64,000 bases of DNA, taken from positions 3,154-67,153 of the forward strand of contig JAHILA010000009.1 of NCBI GenBank assembly GCA_018897295.1, given 5' to 3'. This stretch comes from Patescibacteria group bacterium. GTDB lineage: Bacteria > Patescibacteriota > Minisyncoccia > RBG-13-40-8-A. The translations under genes were made by a program, and so were the position numbers. A model generated the notes under the pieces. That model saw only the letters and a program-made list of their open reading frames with translations, did not search any database and was not told the DNA's origin. Shown here piece by piece: positions 8,209 to 37,513 of this stretch (position 1 is the first letter of the stretch; the number at the start of each line of letters is the position of its first letter).

Positions 8209-8281
8209 TGGACCATAGCGGATTCGAACCGCTGACCTCGTCAATGCGAATGACGCGCTCTACCAACTGAGCTAATGGCCC
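8209..8281 (-). tRNA. tRNA-Ala(CGC)
   Basis: Reverse complement reads GGGCCATTAGCTCAGTTGGTAGAGCGCGTCATTCGCATTGACGAGGTCAGCGGTTCGAATCCGCTATGGTCCA. It has the G3:U70 alanine identity pair and anticodon CGC. Confidence 0.85.
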
Positions 8282-11950: not shown

Positions 11951-11983
11951 AAAAAAAAGAGCGGGGCGCTTGCCGCCGCTCCT
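11951..11983 (-). terminator. Rho-independent terminator downstream of the 12003-12257 gene
   Basis: Hairpin GAGCGGCGGCAAGCGCCCCGCTC followed by TTTTTTTT on the minus strand. Confidence 0.6.
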
Positions 11984-12002: not shown

Positions 12003-12257
12003 TTATCTTAAATATAAGATAACCCTCCTCGATTCTTTGATGACGCTGTGTGTGCTGTCGCCATGTAGATTTTTGGAAAGCTCCTTGATTGCCTGAAGAG
12101 ATTTTCCGGCCAATTCTTTCCCTAGCCTTTCAACGACAGAAACAACGATAATCGGTTTCCGGTCTTTGGTAATTTTCATTTGAACAGGGATGAATCTGCC
12201 ATCCTCTTCAAAATACATCTCCAAGCCCTCGCCAAACAGATTTTTTAATTTCGTCAT
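12003..12257 (-). CDS. Small hypothetical protein (start moved to MTKLKN, which has a GGAGG RBS)
   Basis: AAGGAGG lies 6 nt upstream of the ATG at 12257. A terminator follows. Confidence 0.5.
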   Translation of the reverse strand: MTKLKNLFGEGLEMYFEEDGRFIPVQMKITKDRKPIIVVSVVERLGKELAGKSLQAIKELSKNLHGDSTHSVIKESRRVILYLR

Positions 12258-12304
12258 TTTTCCTCCTTGAATCTTCAATATAGCATACTTCAACTAAAAA
12301 GTCA

Positions 12305-12334
12305 AGAAAAACAAAAAATCTCCGCAAGAGGAGA
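12305..12334 (-). terminator. Rho-independent terminator after the three-Cys-motif gene
   Basis: Hairpin TCTCC-TCTTGC-GGAGA followed by TTTTTTGTTTTT on the minus strand. Confidence 0.5.
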
Positions 12335-12369: not shown

Positions 12370-13194
12370 CTAATACTGATAAATTGGCAAAGGTGCGACC
12401 TTGAAAATTTTTTCTGTTTTTTTGTTATATTTTTCCTCGGTTCCGTTTTTTATATGATATTCAATTCCTTTTCTCTGACAAAAATTAATAACTCTATCTG
12501 ATTGTCTTTGATAAAAATCCTTATTATTTCCATAATTCGATTTTACATTGTAGTTTAATTTTCCAAATACAATTTTATCTACAAAAGATACAGAATTTAA
12601 AACTTCCCATATATTCTGTTCCTGTAAATTAGGCGTTGGGTATGGCTCCATACTCGCCCAAGTTTTTAATCCTTTTTTGTGTAAATATTCTAATGCCTTG
12701 ATTCTTTCTTTATATGGCGCAGAATATGGTTCAAATCTTTTCTTGAAGTTTTTGCTTAAAGAAATAAGAGTTATTCCATATTCATTATTTTGCCCATATT
12801 TTTCGATATCCATTAATTCTTTTGGATAAATCCCTTTTGTTAGAACAGTGCAACGAATATTGTCTTTATTTAATCTCTCAATTATTTTCAGAGTTAAATC
12901 TGCCACCTCTGGATATTTATACATAAAAGGATCGGTCGAAAAACATAAATGGACATATTTAATTTTATTTTTATATTTGGGAATTTCTTTCTCTAATAAC
13001 TGTAAGGCATTAGATACAATCTTGGGTTTTATCCAATCCTTATAATCTTTTATTGCCCCAGTTCTCTTTTTCATCATCATGGCATAACAGGGAAAATTAC
13101 AACCATGAGCACATCCTTCCACGTGGTTAATACAAAAATCAGCATATTCAACCCCACTTCTATATAATAAGGTTTTACGGGTTATGCTTTTCAT
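12370..13194 (-). CDS. Three-Cys-motif protein (C-x3-C-x3-C, radical-SAM-like spacing variant), function unknown
   Basis: HVEGCAHGCNFPCYA near the N-terminus. Adjacent to a TcmP-like partner gene. Confidence 0.5.
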   Translation of the reverse strand: MKSITRKTLLYRSGVEYADFCINHVEGCAHGCNFPCYAMMMKKRTGAIKDYKDWIKPKIVSNALQLLEKEIPKYKNKIKYVHLCFSTDPFMYKYPEVADLTLKIIERLNKDNIRCTVLTKGIYPKELMDIEKYGQNNEYGITLISLSKNFKKRFEPYSAPYKERIKALEYLHKKGLKTWASMEPYPTPNLQEQNIWEVLNSVSFVDKIVFGKLNYNVKSNYGNNKDFYQRQSDRVINFCQRKGIEYHIKNGTEEKYNKKTEKIFKVAPLPIYQY

Positions 13195-13209
13195 ATTTAT
13201 ATTATACCA

Positions 13210-14097
13210 TTATTTTGGGACTTTTAAAATTAAATTATGTTCTAATAATTTTAAAGCTTTAAGCTTCTCAAAATGTTTAAAAATGTCTTCTACAATCTTT
13301 TTGGCTTTATCATTATGCCCCGCATAAATTAAACAATAAAGTGGTGTATTCTTCGAATTTCTCATAATTAATGGCAGAGAAACATATTCAAACACAGATT
13401 TCAATCTTTTAATGAAGTATTCGCTTAGCTTCTTGCCATCAATGTAATCTTTTATCTTTATGGGCCCAAAAAGAGTAGACGCATCAATATACATTATATT
13501 CTGCCAGTCATTATTCCCCCAAAAGCGGTTCATTCTTTCTATGTGTTTTTGAGTAAGCTTACTTGGATTATTTAACAAACAAGCTCTATTTATTGCCATA
13601 ATGGGCATATTTAAAAATATCTCAATTGTTTTTATTTTAGCTGCCTGCTCTATTATTTCCCAACTTATATTCATTCCAAAGGGATCTAAAAACACTAAAA
13701 CTCTTTTAAAACTACTATATGGAAACTGCGGTATCAATTTAGTGAGAACCTCATTGCAATCATCATTTTTTATTATTATCTCTAAATCTTTAAATCGTCT
13801 TTTAATAGATTCTAGTTTTTTTATTCTCCATTTTTCTTTCTCTATAAAAAAATATGCAGTAAAAGGGTTTTTAATGCTCAAGGCGCAACATGGAGAACCA
13901 TCTATAAATCGTTTTTCATCTCTAGCTTTCGGCTTACCAGTTCCGGCGAAAGCATCAATATAATAATAACCTTTACACCACCTTTGATTCTTCATTATTT
14001 TAGTGTAAGCCTCTAAATATTTCTTTAATAAAGAAAGTTTGTCTTCTGACCATCTGCCAACTTCATCAAATTGATCTTTTTTTCTTATAATTTTCAT
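13210..14097 (-). CDS. TcmP-like partner protein with a SAM-methyltransferase-like FAGTG motif
   Basis: YIDAFAGTGK motif (MTase motif I-like). From memory, this resembles the 'three-Cys-motif partner protein TcmP' family. Gene pair arrangement. Confidence 0.45.
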   Translation of the reverse strand: MKIIRKKDQFDEVGRWSEDKLSLLKKYLEAYTKIMKNQRWCKGYYYIDAFAGTGKPKARDEKRFIDGSPCCALSIKNPFTAYFFIEKEKWRIKKLESIKRRFKDLEIIIKNDDCNEVLTKLIPQFPYSSFKRVLVFLDPFGMNISWEIIEQAAKIKTIEIFLNMPIMAINRACLLNNPSKLTQKHIERMNRFWGNNDWQNIMYIDASTLFGPIKIKDYIDGKKLSEYFIKRLKSVFEYVSLPLIMRNSKNTPLYCLIYAGHNDKAKKIVEDIFKHFEKLKALKLLEHNLILKVPK

Positions 14098-14195: not shown

Positions 14196-16883
14196 TTAAT
14201 TATTTTTTAAAATCCTGACCACTCCCTCATTCGCATCGACCTCAATCAAATCGCCGTCTTTTAAAATATCGGTGGCGATTTTTGTGCCAATAATACAGGG
14301 CTTTTTCATCTCTCTGGCCACAATTGCCGCATGACAAGTAATCCCACCTTCGTCTGTAATAAAGGCTATGGCCTTTTTCATTGCTGGAAGATACTTTGGC
14401 ATGGTCATAGCAGCAACAAGTATATCTCCTTTTTTGACTTTATCAATATCAAAAACTTTTGATACTTTTTTCACAACGCCTTTTACTTTGCCCTTATAAG
14501 CTATCTGCCCTTTAATTTCATTCCCTTTATATTGGGTTTCTCCGGAAACCGCAGATTTATTATCTTCTAATTTTATTCCTAACTTATCTAAATTCTCCTG
14601 TGGGTTTCCAGTATATACTTTTTCTTTATAATAAATAAATCCCTTTTCTCTTTCATTTATCTTTTCAATAAAATTAGGATCTTTAATTTCCCCAGACCAT
14701 ACTTCCTCTGGTAAAATAAATCTTGTTTTTCCTTTTAATTTAGGAAAAAATCTTCTTAAAGCCTCTTCAAAAATAATTTCAGGAGTTTCATTATGCCCTT
14801 GTGTCTTTTCTCTGGCATCTAGGGCAATTTTTTTTAATTCTTCATCTACAGAAAGAGTTGGAATTATAAATATAATAGCCGTATAAGACCATACAAAAGC
14901 ATAAAGTTCTTGTACTTTTCTTAACTCCTTTAAATTTTTTATTTTCTTTTTGCCAGCATAATATTGTTTTAATTGACTAAATAAATCCAAGAAATTTTTA
15001 ATTTGTCCTATCATATACTCTTTTTTCTGGCATTTTTTAAATATGCTTCCAAAAACTCTTTTTAATTCGTTGGGTTCATAGTATATACTGACTAAATCTC
15101 CTCCTTTATAAACCGCGCAGGCTTCTGTTATTCCATCCCTGACTATCTTTTTCATTCCTTCACCCATAGAATTATACCAACTAGCTAATCTAAAGAAAGA
15201 ATACTCCCTGGAGTGTTCTTTTGTGAAAACTTTTATCTGTTCGTCATCAAATTTAATATTCTCTTCTTTAATTAATTTATCTATTTCCTCCCCGACATAA
15301 AACTTGTTTTGATAATATACATATCCATTCGATCTTTCCCTAAGCTCTTTTTTGATTATTTCCCTATTTTCAAAAACTTCTTCTGGCAATATATACGGAA
15401 TTTCATTCTCCCTATATCTTCCCTTATAAATTGTTTTTAGTCCTTTTTTTAAAACATCGTCAAATATATCATCATACCTCTCTGTCTTTTCTCTAACATC
15501 CATTGAAATTTTTAAATTTTCCTTAGGAAGATAAGTTAAATTCGGCACAATAAAAACTATACCCAAAAGAGTATAATAATCTTTATATCTATTATAGAAC
15601 CAATTCAGCTCTTCTTTTGAGGTAATGGTTTTCTTTCTCTCTAAATAAGGCAAGAATTCATCAAACATTTCTAAAAATTTCTTTGTAATTTCCTTAACAA
15701 ACCTTATCGATTTTGCTTTTTTGCCAATGACTTCAAATAATTTTTCAAGATCTGTTTTATAATAATAAACCTTTACCAAATTTTCTCCTTTTTTAAAACG
15801 GATTAATGTATGAGATAATCCAATATTTCCAATAAAATCTTTAACATCAGGCGTTATACTTTTTAACCAAACTCCAACCTTGAATAAGCTCATTTCTCTA
15901 GCATGACCTTTTTCTAAAAATAACTCTATTTTTGTAATTTTATCGCCCAAGGTTGTAATCGGTCTGCTTTGAACAATATAAAATTTATTGTTGGCAAATG
16001 CCCATTCAATATCAACCGGAAAACCATAATGATTTTCTATTTTTAAAATTAACTCGGATAGTTTAAGGATTTGTTTATCAGATAAAACCTGCTTTTCTCC
16101 TATTTTTTTCGGGATTGATTTCCATTCGCTACCATTAATTTTGGCTCTATATAGACCTCTGTCCTGAATATTCACATTAATATCAATAATTCTTCTCGGT
16201 TTCTTCTCGACCACATAGCTGTCTGGCGTAACCTGACCGGAAACAATTGCTTCTCCTAAGCCAAAGCTGGCTTCAATAATCAATTGATTTTCATCCTGCG
16301 TAACCGGATGAACAGAGAAAGCAACGCCGGATATTTCGCTATCTACCATCTTTTGAACTACCACAGCTACCGAGATTTTTTGCTTGTGCAGATTTTTTTC
16401 GTATCTGTAGAATATAGCGCGCGGAGTAAATAATGAAGCCCAACACTTTTTAACATTTTCCAAAAGATTTTTCTCGGTTGTATTTAGATACGATTCCAAC
16501 TGTCCTGCCCAAGCTGCTGAAGAACTATCTTCGGCAGTGGCGCTGGAACGAACTGCTACATATTTTGCTTTTAATTGTTTAAATGATTTTTTTATTTCGT
16601 TAGAAATAATTTTTGGCATTTCTGCATTTAGAATCAGCACTTTTATTTTTTCCGAAGCGTCGTCAATTGTATGAATTTCTTTGTGATTTACATTATCTAA
16701 GATTGAATCTATCTCCACGTTTAAATCCGTCTCTTTTAAAAATTGCTCAAATGCATCAGATAAAATAATAAATCCAGGAGGAATCGGAATTCCTGCCTGG
16801 GTCATTTCTCCAAGAGATGCTCCTTTGCCGCCGGCAATAGACGCATCATTTTTATTTATTTGTTTAAAGGTTTTAATAAACAT
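14196..16883 (-). CDS. PEP-utilizing-enzyme family phosphotransferase (N-terminal PPDK-type ATP-grasp, C-terminal phosphohistidine swivel domain; rifampin-phosphotransferase/PpsA-like architecture)
   Basis: N-terminus ASIAGGKGASLGEM...IPIPPGF. C-terminus GGITCHAAIVAREMKKPCIIGT...DGDLIEVDANEGVV. Internal ~90-aa duplication. Confidence 0.7.
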   Translation of the reverse strand: MFIKTFKQINKNDASIAGGKGASLGEMTQAGIPIPPGFIILSDAFEQFLKETDLNVEIDSILDNVNHKEIHTIDDASEKIKVLILNAEMPKIISNEIKKSFKQLKAKYVAVRSSATAEDSSSAAWAGQLESYLNTTEKNLLENVKKCWASLFTPRAIFYRYEKNLHKQKISVAVVVQKMVDSEISGVAFSVHPVTQDENQLIIEASFGLGEAIVSGQVTPDSYVVEKKPRRIIDINVNIQDRGLYRAKINGSEWKSIPKKIGEKQVLSDKQILKLSELILKIENHYGFPVDIEWAFANNKFYIVQSRPITTLGDKITKIELFLEKGHAREMSLFKVGVWLKSITPDVKDFIGNIGLSHTLIRFKKGENLVKVYYYKTDLEKLFEVIGKKAKSIRFVKEITKKFLEMFDEFLPYLERKKTITSKEELNWFYNRYKDYYTLLGIVFIVPNLTYLPKENLKISMDVREKTERYDDIFDDVLKKGLKTIYKGRYRENEIPYILPEEVFENREIIKKELRERSNGYVYYQNKFYVGEEIDKLIKEENIKFDDEQIKVFTKEHSREYSFFRLASWYNSMGEGMKKIVRDGITEACAVYKGGDLVSIYYEPNELKRVFGSIFKKCQKKEYMIGQIKNFLDLFSQLKQYYAGKKKIKNLKELRKVQELYAFVWSYTAIIFIIPTLSVDEELKKIALDAREKTQGHNETPEIIFEEALRRFFPKLKGKTRFILPEEVWSGEIKDPNFIEKINEREKGFIYYKEKVYTGNPQENLDKLGIKLEDNKSAVSGETQYKGNEIKGQIAYKGKVKGVVKKVSKVFDIDKVKKGDILVAAMTMPKYLPAMKKAIAFITDEGGITCHAAIVAREMKKPCIIGTKIATDILKDGDLIEVDANEGVVRILKNN

Positions 16884-16887
16884 TATT

Positions 16888-17922
16888 TTATTTTGCTTTC
16901 TTGATTATTTTAACTATTCCTTTATTCGCATCTACTTCCACTAAATCACCATCTTTAAAAACTTTGGTAGCAATTTTAGTGCCCATAATACATGGAATCT
17001 TCATCTCTCGACTAACTATCGCAGCATGACAAAGAAATCCTCCTTCATCTGAAATAATGGCCGAAGCCTTCTTAATAACTGGCAGATAGTCCGGAGTTGT
17101 CCCATGGGCAATCAAAATATCATCTTTTTTCATTTTACTAAATTCTCTAATTGATAATATTATTCTTGCCTTACCCCTAACTTTTCCTTTATATGCTGTA
17201 ATACCTTTTATTTCAGTTGTATCTTTTTTTTCAAATCTAAATCTTTTTATTTGTTTAAATTCGCTGATTGTTTTTTTATTAGTAACTACAATATCTTCAA
17301 ATAGAATAAACTCCTTAAGTTTTGGTTTGTACCTTTTTAAATAAGCTGGTAAAAATCTATTTTTTAGCAAGTAATTGTCCATTTCACCGCCAGGAGTGAA
17401 TAGTTTTTCAGTTTTAATCCTTGCCTGCTCGCATTTTTTTACCAACAACTTATCTTTTATAGGAATTTTTAAATCTTTGGCTAAATAAGGAATTATGAAT
17501 GTTAAAGCTTCAAATGCTAATATTTCTGACGCTAAATAAAAAACCTTTGAATCAGAAGTTTTATTTGAGGCATTTCCATTGGAAACAGATTTAAACTCTC
17601 TGACCTTCTCATAGTAATCTATTATTCTTTGATGCAGGATTTTATTACCAGTATTTGAATTTATCTTCTTAACAAGACAGCCGGTGAATCGTTTAAAATT
17701 GACAAAAAACTCATATAAATTTCTGGAATTCTTATAAATCAAAACATTCTTATAAATCAGGCAGCCACTTTCCCTTTTTAATAAACGGGTATAAGCATGA
17801 TAGATTGCAAACAAATAAGGAAAACTATATGGCCTTAAAAATATTAAAGAAGTACTCTTATGAGTTAAAAATTGATTTATTCTCTTGTCTATATCTTTAA
17901 TATCCATTTTACCTACCTTCAT
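16888..17922 (-). CDS. Protein with C-terminal PEP-utilizers mobile (phosphohistidine) domain
   Basis: C-terminus GGFLCHAAIVSREMKIPCIMGTKIA...DGDLVEVDANKGIV, paralogous to the C-terminus of the upstream 895-aa protein. Confidence 0.6.
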   Translation of the reverse strand: MKVGKMDIKDIDKRINQFLTHKSTSLIFLRPYSFPYLFAIYHAYTRLLKRESGCLIYKNVLIYKNSRNLYEFFVNFKRFTGCLVKKINSNTGNKILHQRIIDYYEKVREFKSVSNGNASNKTSDSKVFYLASEILAFEALTFIIPYLAKDLKIPIKDKLLVKKCEQARIKTEKLFTPGGEMDNYLLKNRFLPAYLKRYKPKLKEFILFEDIVVTNKKTISEFKQIKRFRFEKKDTTEIKGITAYKGKVRGKARIILSIREFSKMKKDDILIAHGTTPDYLPVIKKASAIISDEGGFLCHAAIVSREMKIPCIMGTKIATKVFKDGDLVEVDANKGIVKIIKKAK

Positions 17923-22429: not shown

Positions 22430-22572
22430 GGGGCACCCACGGGGCACCCAGATTCGAACTGGGACTACTGACTCCCCGCCTGCCAACGCCTGAGCTTTTC
22501 GGACTGCCGAGATTTGCACTCGGGCTAAATCCTCCCGAAGGACTCGTGCTACTATTACACTACAGCCCGGAT
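22430..22572 (-). other. tRNA-like structured element or remnant in the glmS 5' region
   Basis: Minus strand shows a D-arm-like TAGTGTAATAGTAGCAC, an anticodon-like stem-loop AGTCC-TTCGGGA-GGATT (CGG), and a canonical T-arm CCCAG-TTCGAAT-CTGGG. The acceptor strands (CGGGCTG vs TGCCCCG) do not pair. About 60 nt of GC hairpins sit between the anticodon arm and T-arm. An 11-bp tandem duplication GGGTGCCCCGT occurs at the 3' end. Confidence 0.4.
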
Positions 22573-37043: not shown

Positions 37044-37117
37044 TGGTACCCCCACAAGGAATCGAACCTTGGTCAATTGCTTAAAAGGCAACTGCTTTAC
37101 CATTAAGCTATGGGGGC
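37044..37117 (-). tRNA. tRNA-Lys(UUU), CCA encoded
   Basis: GCCCCCATAGCTTAATGGTAAAGCAGTTGCCTTTTAAGCAATTGACCAAGGTTCGATTCCTTGTGGGGGTACCA. Confidence 0.85.
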
Positions 37118-37170
37118 ATATTAAGTCCCGACGATTCTGTCGGGACCCCGACCACTTCGTGCGTCGGGGC
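37118..37170 (-). repeat. Duplicate of the tRNA-Lys 5' end (GCCCCCATAGC) fused to GC-rich hairpins (GTCCCGAC..GTCGGGAC, CCCCGAC..GTCGGGG)
   Basis: 12-nt copy of the tRNA 5' acceptor/D region, followed by two perfect 7-8 bp GC hairpins. Confidence 0.5.
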
Positions 37171-37221
37171 TATGGGGGCGTATTTAAAATAATAGATTTT
37201 AAAAAGCATTTAGTCAACTTA

Positions 37222-37413
37222 TGCGCGTGGGAGGACTCGAACCCCCAACCGTCTCCTTAAGAGGGAGCTGCCCCGCCCGCCTTGCTTCGCCGATTATATG
37301 CGCCCACCAGGACTCGAACCTGGGACAATCTCCTTAAGAGGGAGCTGCTCTACCAACTGAGCTATGGGCGCGTCAAGGCGAAGCGGGCAGGTCTACCATT
37401 GAGCTACACGCGC
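37222..37413 (-). tRNA. Interrupted tRNA-Lys(CUU): 5' part 37392-37413 and 3' part 37222-37271, separated by a 120-nt intervening segment that contains another tRNA
   Basis: The joined halves give a canonical 72-nt tRNA (GCGCGTG-TA-GCTC-AATGGTA-GAGC-A-GCTCC-CTCTTAA-GGAGA-CGGTT-GGGGG-TTCGAGT-CCTCC-CACGCGC-A) with a 7/7 acceptor pairing. The intervening segment begins and ends with complementary GC-rich arms. Confidence 0.55.
37299..37371 (-). tRNA. tRNA-Lys(CUU), intact, nested inside the interrupted copy
   Basis: GCGCCCATAGCTCAGTTGGTAGAGCAGCTCCCTCTTAAGGAGATTGTCCCAGGTTCGAGTCCTGGTGGGCGCA. Confidence 0.85.
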
Positions 37414-37441
37414 GCTTTTCAGTTAACCGAGTTTGACTCGG

Positions 37442-37513
37442 TGCCCTCGGCAGGATTCGAACCCGCAACTACGCGTCCGAAGCGCGTCGTGTTATCCGTT
37501 ATACCACGAGGGC
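37442..37513 (-). tRNA. tRNA-Arg(UCG)
   Basis: GCCCTCGTGGTATAACGGATAACACGACGCGCTTCGGACGCGTAGTTGCGGGTTCGAATCCTGCCGAGGGCA. Confidence 0.8.

What the first reader, a model, noticed from the sequence alone, without database searches (positions are those of the whole stretch)
12370..14097. Three-Cys-motif protein plus TcmP-like partner: a two-gene module of unknown function
The 12370-13194 product has an N-terminal C-x3-C-x3-C cluster (CAHGCNFPC) at the position where radical-SAM enzymes carry C-x3-C-x2-C. The upstream, co-directional 13210-14097 product has a YIDAFAGTGK motif like methyltransferase motif I (FxGxG). From memory, it resembles proteins annotated as 'three-Cys-motif partner protein TcmP'. 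The pair has its own terminator, and it is embedded among housekeeping genes (efflux pump on one side, PEP-utilizing operon on the other). That placement fits a laterally acquired nucleic-acid modification or defense cassette.
Basis: partly seen in the sequence, partly recalled or inferred. Interest (0 to 1): 0.55.

Follow-up and report, generated by a model that had tools for sequence, protein, structure and literature searches.

The report
Mobile radical-SAM plus methyltransferase-like gene pair
The two genes are a real, widespread mobile pair of untested function: a radical-SAM enzyme with an unusual iron-sulfur motif and a fast-evolving methyltransferase-like partner (TcmP), which most likely act together on DNA.

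Summary
13210-14097(-) encodes a clear TcmP (TIGR04474, 216 bits against a cutoff of 53). 12370-13194(-), 15 nt downstream, encodes a radical-SAM protein (PF04055, 53.6 bits) with CAHGCNFPC at residues 28-36.

- **Radical-SAM protein:** its AlphaFold model is closest to spore photoproduct lyase. By profile it is a sister clade of DUF5131. The C-x3-C-x3-C spacing is fixed in 139 of 142 clade members.
- **TcmP:** it has a class I methyltransferase fold. Motifs I-IV sit after strands 1-4, and it is distantly related to RsmD and RlmJ.
- **Pairing:** the two genes are adjacent in about 120 of 129 loci. One natural fusion protein exists.
- **Divergence:** the radical-SAM protein is conserved (median 59.5% identity to the window's). 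TcmP is hypervariable (median 31%), and partners are swapped between clades.
- **Context elsewhere:** the pair sits beside restriction-modification genes, recombinases, phage repressors and DNA methyltransferases, including on 65 predicted viral contigs. PADLOC lists TcmP plus DUF5131 as untested defence candidates PDC-M41 and PDC-M30. The window's radical-SAM protein does not match the B models.

No function has been published. My best inference is a two-subunit DNA base-modifying or defence module carried by mobile elements. It is a new variant of a known but uncharacterised kind, of moderate interest.

The parts
13210..14097 (-). tcmP: a 295-aa three-Cys-motif partner protein with a class I SAM-methyltransferase fold. 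Motif I is D48-A-F-A-G-T-G54, motif II is E86, motif III is D113-C-N, and motif IV is D138-P-F. G67-S-P69 is also conserved.
   Evidence: - TIGR04474 scores 216.3 bits against a cutoff of 53.
- PADLOC PDC-M41A scores 213 bits.
- The AlphaFold2 model has mean pLDDT 86.3.
- Foldseek against PDB and BFVD returns only class I methyltransferases.
- hhalign gives RsmD at 78% probability and RlmJ at 65%.
- The invariant columns come from the 52-sequence alignment.
- A 100% identical NCBI protein is annotated TcmP in a Patescibacteria group bacterium.
12370..13194 (-). A 274-aa radical-SAM protein of a DUF5131-sister, SPL-like clade. The cluster motif is C28-x3-C32-x3-C36 (CAHGCNFPC). C84, C115 and C239 are also conserved.
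   Evidence: - PF04055 scores 53.6 bits against a gathering score of 29.5. PF07505 scores 21.6 bits, below its gathering score of 28.9.
- The AlphaFold2 model has mean pLDDT 80.7.
- The best PDB match is spore photoproduct lyase 4fhg, TMq 0.64, E 2e-7.
- hhalign against a DUF5131 alignment gives 93.5% probability over 200 columns.
- Motif statistics come from 142 clade members.
13195..13209 (-). A 15-nt intergenic spacer between tcmP and the radical-SAM gene. The genes form an operon-like tight pair, and a TGGTATAAT sequence spans the junction.
   Evidence: Sequence. The promoter-like site at 13228..13201 is a consensus match only.
12309..12334 (-). An intrinsic-terminator-like hairpin plus T-run that closes the pair.
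   Evidence: Terminator scan and sequence.

Best explanation
The two genes form a mobile two-component nucleic-acid-modifying cassette.

**Shown**
- The 274-aa protein has the radical-SAM core fold, with an SPL-like architecture and a conserved Cys triad of unusual C-x3-C-x3-C spacing.
- TcmP has a class I methyltransferase fold. It keeps the four motifs of amino-methyltransferases (DxFxGxG, an acidic residue ending strand 2, D after strand 3, and DP[FY] after strand 4).
- The two genes are almost always adjacent, and they occur fused at least once.
- The radical-SAM partner is conserved, while TcmP is hypervariable and partners are swapped between clades.
- Long TcmP forms add a C-terminal winged helix domain.
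- The pair travels on phage-like and other mobile elements and sits in restriction-modification islands.

**Inferred**
- The triad binds a [4Fe-4S] cluster and cleaves SAM to the 5'-deoxyadenosyl radical.
- TcmP is the target-recognising subunit. It binds SAM and flips a base out, most likely in DNA, and probably N-methylates it.
- The radical-SAM subunit then performs hydrogen-abstraction chemistry on that base or its new substituent. The result is a non-canonical DNA mark or lesion.
- Biologically, the mark serves in the conflict between mobile elements and their hosts. It would either protect or label the carrier's DNA against restriction, or act against incoming DNA. The second option is the role implied by PADLOC candidates PDC-M41 and PDC-M30.
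- In this Patescibacteria genome the cassette is a stand-alone insertion among housekeeping genes.
For: **Family identities**
- HMM matches.
- Predicted structures and fold matches.
- Profile links: TcmP to RsmD and RlmJ; the radical-SAM clade to DUF5131.

**Coupling**
- TcmP lies next to a three-Cys radical-SAM-type gene in nearly all 28 genome loci.
- TcmP lies directly upstream in 52 of 65 viral loci with a narrow HMM.
- After iteration, it is upstream in 119 of 129 loci. Divergent partners are confirmed as TIGR04474 at 124-227 bits.
- P0306 is a natural fusion of a DUF5131-type radical-SAM protein and TcmP.

**Variable versus conserved subunit**
- Median identity to the window pair is 59.5% for the radical-SAM protein and 31% for TcmP, over 112 loci.
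- The window's TcmP subtype pairs with DUF5131-type, window-clade and SPL-type partners.

**DNA link**
- SPL is the best structural match.
- Long TcmP forms carry a C-terminal winged helix domain, PF22560.

**Context**
- Neighbours include Type III Mod/Res genes, an M78+HTH protein, a serine recombinase and a primase.
- Around 30 mostly Patescibacteria-like loci, the commonest neighbour families are Eco57I, ResIII, N6_Mtase, Peptidase_S24 and Recombinase.
- PHROG neighbours are repressors, integrases and many DNA methyltransferases.
- The pair is on 65 IMG/VR contigs. A cultured Synechococcus phage carries a TcmP plus DUF5131 pair.
- Distribution across phyla is patchy.
Against: - No experiment on any TcmP or DUF5131 protein was found in the literature. 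The substrate and chemistry are therefore pure inference.
- C-x3-C-x3-C spacing is not a documented radical-SAM variant, to my knowledge. Cluster binding and SAM cleavage are unproven.
- TcmP has no Pfam methyltransferase hit. Foldseek TM-scores are only 0.3-0.46.
- Some TcmP subgroups have a degenerate motif I, for example IDCMSNSGEY. Methyl transfer may not be universal.
- RsmD and RlmJ are rRNA enzymes, so RNA is not excluded as the substrate.
- In this window the neighbours are housekeeping genes, with no restriction, nuclease or mobility gene nearby.
- Base composition does not single the pair out from the upstream genes.
- The window's radical-SAM protein does not match PADLOC PDC-M41B or M30B.
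Confidence: 0.5

Rival explanations
1. A stand-alone anti-phage defence system, as PADLOC PDC-M41/M30 implies. TcmP senses or binds foreign nucleic acid or a nucleotide. The radical-SAM enzyme is the effector, either damaging invading DNA or making a toxic or chain-terminating nucleotide, as viperins do. No self-protective modification is needed.
For: - TcmP matches PDC-M41A at 213 bits and PDC-M30A at 55 bits.
- DUF5131 partners match PDC-M41B and M30B at 365-395 bits.
- The context is a defence island or restriction-modification island.
- A hypervariable partner fits an arms race.
- In S. meliloti a TcmP gene lies close to the Hna defence gene in locus-tag order (PMC12445080).
Against: - The PDC systems are guilt-by-association candidates. 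No phenotype was found in the literature.
- The window's radical-SAM protein has no PADLOC hit.
- The fold is SPL-like, not viperin-like.
- The pair is also carried by phages themselves, in lysogeny or early regions next to orphan DNA methyltransferases. That fits counter-defence equally well.
Confidence: 0.22
2. A DNA-repair module. The SPL-like radical-SAM enzyme directly reverses a base lesion, such as a thymine-dimer-type or alkylation-type adduct. TcmP acts as the lesion-recognition and base-flipping subunit.
For: - SPL is the best structural match. NCBIfam gives weak hits to PA0069/Rv2578c 'DNA repair photolyase'-type families.
- A LexA gene lies directly upstream of an SPL-type radical-SAM plus TcmP pair in L007.
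- Peptidase_S24 neighbours occur at 4 of 30 loci.
- A DNA_alkylation repair gene lies near the pair in L005.
Against: - S24/LexA-like proteins near mobile elements are usually phage-type repressors.
- A repair enzyme would not be expected to need a hypervariable, swappable partner.
- A repair module would also not be expected to cluster with restriction-modification genes.
- All scores to SPL-type HMMs are far below their cutoffs.
Confidence: 0.1
3. A housekeeping rRNA or tRNA modification pair, analogous to a methyltransferase plus a radical-SAM enzyme acting on one nucleoside, such as Trm5 and TYW1.
For: - The closest profile relatives of TcmP are the rRNA methyltransferases RsmD and RlmJ.
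- The radical-SAM protein is 70-78% identical across many Patescibacteria.
- The window neighbours are housekeeping genes.
Against: - Distribution is patchy and synteny is not conserved.
- The pair is present on viral or mobile-element contigs.
- TcmP is hypervariable and partners are swapped.
- Some TcmPs have a C-terminal winged helix domain.
Confidence: 0.08

Closest known systems
TcmP + DUF5131 (PF07505, 'phage Gp37/Gp68') cassette. This is the gene pairing behind the NCBIfam name for TIGR04474 (my recollection of the family description), and the PADLOC candidate systems PDC-M41 and PDC-M30.
   Same: - The same TcmP family (216 bits).
- Tight adjacency to a three-Cys radical-SAM-type protein.
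- The same mobile, patchily distributed lifestyle.
- The radical-SAM clade is homologous to DUF5131 over its whole length (hhalign 93.5%).
   Different: - The partner is below the PF07505 gathering score (21.6 against 28.9).
- It has no PDC-M41B or M30B hit.
- It carries C-x3-C-x3-C instead of the C-x6-C-x2-C of DUF5131.
- It is about 25-35 aa longer, with a basic C-terminal tail.
Spore photoproduct lyase (SPL; PDB 4fhg, 4fhc)
   Same: - The best structural match for the radical-SAM model (TMq 0.64).
- A radical-SAM partial barrel that acts on bases flipped out of duplex DNA.
- The same RadicalSAM.org megacluster 5 as DUF5131 (PMC9477430).
   Different: - Only 13-14% identity, with no SPL HMM hit.
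- Different Cys spacing.
- The SPL catalytic Cys and Tyr residues were not mapped.
- SPL works alone, without a methyltransferase-like partner.
RsmD (16S m2G966) and RlmJ (23S m6A2030) amino-methyltransferases
   Same: - A class I fold.
- Motif I, DxFAGxG(x)Y, resembles LDCFAGSG in RsmD and LDTHAGAGRY in RlmJ.
- GSP resembles RlmJ's YPGSP.
- Motif IV, DPF, resembles DPPF and DPPY.
- RlmJ 4blu is among the Foldseek hits.
   Different: - Profile probabilities are only 65-78%, and there is no Pfam hit.
- Motif IV is one residue shorter.
- TcmP lacks RlmJ's helical insert.
- TcmP has an obligate radical-SAM neighbour and lives on mobile elements.
Radical SAM mobile pair proteins A and B (TIGR04471, TIGR04470)
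   Same: Weak N-terminal similarity (33 bits to pair B). By name and from memory of the family descriptions, these are also two-gene radical-SAM cassettes on mobile elements.
   Different: Scores are far below the cutoffs (33 against 410). In that pair the partner is a second radical-SAM protein, not a methyltransferase-fold protein.

Membership tests
Radical SAM superfamily (PF04055) | HMM score above the Pfam gathering threshold | tested here: met
   53.6 bits against 29.5, covering residues 22-199.
Radical SAM superfamily (PF04055) | Canonical C-x3-C-x2-C cluster-binding motif | tested here: not met
   The motif is C28-x3-C32-x3-C36 (CAHGCNFPC). This spacing occurs in 139 of 142 clade members, and the three Cys are 99% conserved. 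An aromatic residue is retained two positions before the third Cys.
Radical SAM superfamily (PF04055) | Partial (beta/alpha)6 TIM-barrel core fold | tested here: met
   The AlphaFold2 model has pLDDT 80.7. Nearly all Foldseek PDB hits with E <= 1e-3 are radical-SAM enzymes, including SPL, HydE, SkfB, TsrM, PFL-AE, LipA and QueE; the single exception is a ribulose epimerase TIM barrel.
Radical SAM superfamily (PF04055) | [4Fe-4S] binding and reductive SAM cleavage | not testable with these tools
   This needs anaerobic biochemistry.
DUF5131 (PF07505) | HMM score above the gathering threshold, and the C-x6-C-x2-C motif | tested here: not met
   21.6 bits against 28.9, and the Cys spacing differs. 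It is homologous by profile (93.5%), so it is a sister clade rather than a member. Some close homologues do carry a precomputed PF07505 hit.
Spore photoproduct lyase / COG1533 SplB-like (PA0069, Rv2578c, PF20903) | Family HMM above the cutoff | tested here: not met
   PA0069 scores 44.8 against 360. Rv2578c scores 35.1 against 430. There is no PF20903 hit. The similarity is structural only.
TcmP (TIGR04474) | HMM score above the curated cutoff | tested here: met
   216.3 bits against 53, covering profile positions 1-260 of 263.
TcmP (TIGR04474) | Encoded next to a three-Cys-motif protein | tested here: met
   The gap to the radical-SAM gene is 15 nt. The same adjacency holds in about 120 of 129 related loci.
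PADLOC candidate system PDC-M41 / PDC-M30 | Both the A and B component models match | tested here: not met
   The A component matches (PDC-M41A 213 bits, M30A 55 bits). The B component gives no hit for the window protein at E <= 0.1. True DUF5131 partners score 365-395 bits.
PADLOC candidate system PDC-M41 / PDC-M30 | Demonstrated anti-phage phenotype | not testable with these tools
   No experimental report was found. The names appear only in survey listings.
Class I SAM-dependent (amino-)methyltransferases, RsmD/RlmJ-like | Rossmann-like class I methyltransferase fold | tested here: met
   The AlphaFold2 model has pLDDT 86.3. Against PDB, 92 hits have E <= 1e-3 and the 50 listed are class I methyltransferases or methyltransferase-fold enzymes. 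BFVD hits are likewise almost all annotated methyltransferase or mRNA-capping proteins. TM-scores are modest, 0.3-0.46.
Class I SAM-dependent (amino-)methyltransferases, RsmD/RlmJ-like | Motifs I-IV in canonical positions after strands 1-4 | tested here: met
   - D48AFAGTG follows strand 43-49.
- E86 ends strand 81-86.
- D113 follows strand 107-111.
- D138-P-F follows strand 131-137.
- These residues are invariant or near-invariant in 52 sequences.
- DP[FY] is kept in most of the family, though a minority have DPQ, DPE, DPD, DPC, DPH or DPT. Motif I is degenerate in some subgroups.
Class I SAM-dependent (amino-)methyltransferases, RsmD/RlmJ-like | Significant sequence or profile match to a defined methyltransferase family | tested here: inconclusive
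   There is no Pfam hit above threshold. hhalign gives 78% for RsmD and 65% for RlmJ, each against a single-sequence template.
Class I SAM-dependent (amino-)methyltransferases, RsmD/RlmJ-like | SAM binding and methyl transfer | not testable with these tools
   This needs biochemistry.

The most novel reading that the evidence does not exclude
The cassette is a previously unrecognised kind of DNA-modification or immunity system. A hypervariable RlmJ/RsmD-like subunit selects the target. A conserved SPL/DUF5131-like radical-SAM enzyme, using an undescribed C-x3-C-x3-C cluster motif, performs radical chemistry on the flipped base. The product would be a new DNA mark or a targeted lesion, used in conflicts between mobile elements and hosts.
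Probability: 0.3. Interest if true: 0.75.

Novelty: new variant of a known kind. Interest (0 to 1): 0.5.

Why it matters
TcmP-type proteins form a large family with no published experiment behind them. The search found 3625 clusters at 50% identity with E <= 1e-3.

This analysis gives the family a concrete and testable shape:
- a methyltransferase-fold, target-selecting subunit;
- a conserved SPL-like radical-SAM catalytic subunit;
- carriage on phages and in restriction-modification islands.

If the pair writes a new DNA mark or acts as a defence effector, several things would follow.
- It would add radical-SAM base chemistry to the known repertoire of restriction and modification.
- It would explain two PADLOC candidate systems.
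- It would define a new functional radical-SAM cluster motif.

For Patescibacteria, which have very small genomes, it would show that they still carry such conflict modules.

Tried and rejected
- **Solved structures by sequence:** the search found nothing meaningful for either protein.
- **Narrow TcmP alignment:** hhalign with the 52-sequence alignment gave only motif-level matches to RsmD and RlmJ. A 104-sequence diverse alignment was needed. RsmJ gave nothing.
- **Literature:** searches for TcmP, DUF5131, PF07505, PDC-M41/M30, GMT-wHTH, Gp68 and SPL-type defence returned no functional data. The single 'CX3CX3C' mention concerns NifB and looks like a slip for CX3CX2C.
- **The 84-aa ORF at 12003-12257(-):** I rejected it as a third component. 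It lies beyond the terminator and has no homologue beside the pair elsewhere.
- **Base composition:** I rejected it as evidence of horizontal transfer in this window.
- **Cultured-phage hits:** most are a different, roughly 27%-identical radical-SAM family without TcmP.
Full report
**Observation.** The window's minus strand carries two co-directional ORFs. One is 13210-14097 (295 aa) and the other is 12370-13194 (274 aa), with 15 nt between them. The downstream product has CAHGCNFPC at residues 28-36. The upstream product has YIDAFAGTGK at residues 46-55. A terminator-like hairpin plus T-run at 12334..12319(-) follows the second gene.

The flanks are a MacA/ABC/MacB-type efflux operon on one side and PPDK_N/PEP-utilizers genes on the other. 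No terminator separates the pair from the upstream PEP-utilizer gene, and no strong private promoter was found. The pair's GC content is 29-30%, about 1.2-1.4 SD below the window ORF mean. The three genes upstream are similarly AT-rich. Composition therefore does not prove acquisition.

**Identity of the two proteins.** The 295-aa protein is a clear TcmP. It scores 216.3 bits on TIGR04474 against a cutoff of 53. A 100% identical NCBI protein from a Patescibacteria group bacterium already carries that name.

The 274-aa protein passes Pfam Radical_SAM (53.6 against 29.5). It falls below the DUF5131 threshold (21.6 against 28.9). It scores far below the cutoffs of the SPL-like NCBIfam families PA0069 and Rv2578c and of 'mobile pair B'.

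In PADLOC, TcmP matches PDC-M41A (213 bits) and PDC-M30A (55 bits), but the radical-SAM protein matches nothing. True DUF5131 partners from other loci match PDC-M41B and M30B at 365-395 bits. Those candidate systems are therefore TcmP plus DUF5131, and the window carries a variant partner.

**Structures.** The AlphaFold2 model of TcmP has mean pLDDT 86.3. Foldseek finds only class I SAM methyltransferases in PDB, including EgtD, TYW4, KsgA and RlmJ 4blu, with 92 hits at E <= 1e-3. It finds the same in the viral library. TM-scores are modest, at 0.3-0.46.

The invariant residues of a 52-sequence alignment fall where methyltransferase motifs I-IV belong on the predicted strands:
- D48-A-F-A-G-T-G follows strand 1.
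- E86 ends strand 2.
- D113 follows strand 3.
- D138-P-F follows strand 4.

A diverse 104-sequence TcmP alignment gives hhalign probabilities of 78% to E. coli RsmD and 65% to RlmJ. Motif I, GSP and motif IV align in each case. The narrow alignment had given only weak matches.

The radical-SAM model has mean pLDDT 80.7. Its best match is spore photoproduct lyase (4fhg, TMq 0.64, E 2e-7), followed by many other radical-SAM enzymes. A profile of the clade aligns to a DUF5131 profile over 200 columns at 93.5% probability. RadicalSAM.org places DUF5131 and SPL in the same megacluster 5 (PMC9477430).

**The Cys motif.** Among 142 unique clade members, C-x3-C-x3-C (consensus C[AS]HGCx[FY]PC) occurs in 139. 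C28, C32 and C36 are 99% conserved. C239 (100%), C84 (96%) and C115 (89%) are also conserved.

TcmP partners fall into several classes by motif:
- The DUF5131 type has C-x6-C-x2-C.
- The SPL type has the canonical C-x3-C-x2-C.
- One related partner (L024) is also canonical.

I found no literature on a functional C-x3-C-x3-C radical-SAM motif. The single text hit concerns NifB and looks like a typographical slip.

**Coupling of the two genes.** In 28 genome loci from many phyla, TcmP is nearly always directly adjacent to and co-directional with a three-Cys radical-SAM-type gene. These phyla include Chloroflexi, Omnitrophota, Acidobacteria, Planctomycetes and Nitrospinota. Gene order varies.

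For the window's radical-SAM clade, 65 IMG/VR contigs (48-59% identity) and 80 metagenome contigs (61-78%) were retrieved. Iterative search finds a TcmP-family gene immediately upstream in 119 of 129 loci that have an upstream ORF. Ten divergent examples were confirmed as TIGR04474 at 124-227 bits.

One cluster representative, P0306 (558 aa), is a natural fusion of a DUF5131-type radical-SAM protein and TcmP. A cultured Synechococcus phage (Ssp-JY39) carries a convergent TcmP plus DUF5131 pair.

**Asymmetric evolution.** Across 112 loci, the radical-SAM protein is 49-78% identical to the window's, with a median of 59.5%. The cognate TcmP is 23-42% identical, with a median of 31%. Only two close relatives are exceptions.

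Radical-SAM proteins that are about 75% identical are paired with several different TcmP subtypes, of roughly 283, 309 and 365 aa. Conversely, TcmPs at least 50% identical to the window's are paired with DUF5131-type, window-clade and SPL-type partners. The long TcmPs add a C-terminal winged helix domain, PF22560. TcmP thus looks like the variable, target-selecting module, and the radical-SAM protein like the conserved catalytic module.

**Context.** Around the pair in IMG/VR loci lie several kinds of gene:
- Type III Mod and Res genes;
- a large M78/IrrE-like protein;
- serine recombinases;
- a primase;
- a T5orf172-ResIII protein.

Mod homologues occur in 16 of the 65 loci, Res in 11 and the M78 protein in 27. 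PHROG annotation of 132 neighbours is dominated by repressors and regulators, integrases, many DNA methyltransferases, exonucleases and ImmA-type proteases.

Around 30 mostly Patescibacteria-like loci, the commonest neighbour families are Eco57I methylase, ResIII, N6_Mtase, Peptidase_S24 and Recombinase. Synteny is not conserved among Patescibacteria loci.

In the window itself the surroundings are housekeeping genes, including NusA, trigger factor, ClpP and MacAB. The identical pair was found on three contigs from different samples, and two of them show the same flanking genes. The TcmP family is large, with 3625 clusters at 50% identity and E <= 1e-3.

**Mechanism.** The following points are shown:
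- The fold and family of both proteins.
- Conservation of the motifs.
- Obligate adjacency of the two genes, and one fusion.
- The conserved-versus-variable asymmetry.
- The mobile-element and restriction-modification context.

The following points are inferred:
- The Cys triad binds a [4Fe-4S] cluster and generates the 5'-deoxyadenosyl radical.
- TcmP binds SAM, selects the target and flips out a base, most likely in DNA.
- The two enzymes together create a non-canonical base modification or lesion used in conflicts between mobile elements and hosts.

I put about 0.5 on this general model. The rivals are a stand-alone defence effector (0.22), an SPL-like repair module (0.10) and housekeeping RNA modification (0.08). 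No published experiment bears on any of them.

**Verdict.** It is not a discovery of a new kind. The cassette type is already named by NCBIfam and listed as a PADLOC candidate.

The window does carry a distinct, previously undescribed partner clade with fixed C-x3-C-x3-C spacing, and the whole cassette family remains functionally unexplored. I rate novelty as a new variant of a known (uncharacterised) kind, and interest at about 0.5.

Noticed in passing
window 12003-12257 (-): An 84-aa ORF just downstream of the pair's terminator. It has its own promoter-like site (12305..12277, with a TG extension) and its own terminator (11977..11960). It has no family hit. It is present only on the contigs that carry the identical pair, and is absent next to the pair in all other loci.
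   Followed up: partly
window 14196-16883 (-) and 16888-17922 (-): The 895-aa protein has an N-terminal PPDK_N ATP-grasp domain, a long unassigned middle region and a C-terminal PEP-utilizers swivel domain. The preceding gene encodes a 344-aa protein with only the swivel domain. The architecture recalls PEP-synthase-like or rifampicin-phosphotransferase-like kinases rather than a complete PPDK.
   Followed up: no
L002 5593-6966 (-): A 457-aa fusion of the LexA DNA-binding domain, Peptidase_S24 and an N6_N4 DNA methyltransferase. It sits beside an R.Pab1-like restriction enzyme and directly next to a TcmP plus radical-SAM pair in a 585-kb contig.
   Followed up: no
P0306 and P0244 (proteins): P0306 (558 aa) is a natural fusion of a DUF5131-type radical-SAM protein (CTKLSAGCNLC) with TcmP. 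P0244 (552 aa) is a tandem duplication of a TcmP, which may be an assembly artefact.
   Followed up: partly
L038-L102 (IMG/VR loci), e.g. L060 2513-11832: A recurrent arrangement: an M78/IrrE-like protein of about 650 aa (divergent), an ORF of about 85 aa, TcmP, the radical-SAM gene, Type III Mod (about 700 aa) and Res (about 960 aa). Whether the Type III system is functionally linked to the pair or merely co-located is unknown.
   Followed up: partly
L007 4483-6840: A LexA-like repressor gene lies directly upstream of an SPL-type (PF20903) radical-SAM gene and a TcmP that groups with the window's own TcmP subtype (about 56% identity). This may mean SOS-regulated expression of one cassette variant.
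   Followed up: no
long TcmP homologues, e.g. L058 4801-5907, residues 296-351: TcmPs of about 365 aa carry a C-terminal PF22560 'GMT-like wHTH' domain (27-39 bits against a gathering score of 27). No literature on this domain was found. The window's TcmP lacks it and ends in a long helix.
   Followed up: partly
window 8209-8281, 22499-22569, 37044-37513: Five tRNA genes: Ala-CGC, Pro-CGG, Lys-TTT, Lys-CTT and Arg-TCG. None is adjacent to the pair, so there is no tRNA-linked integration signature at this locus.
   Followed up: no
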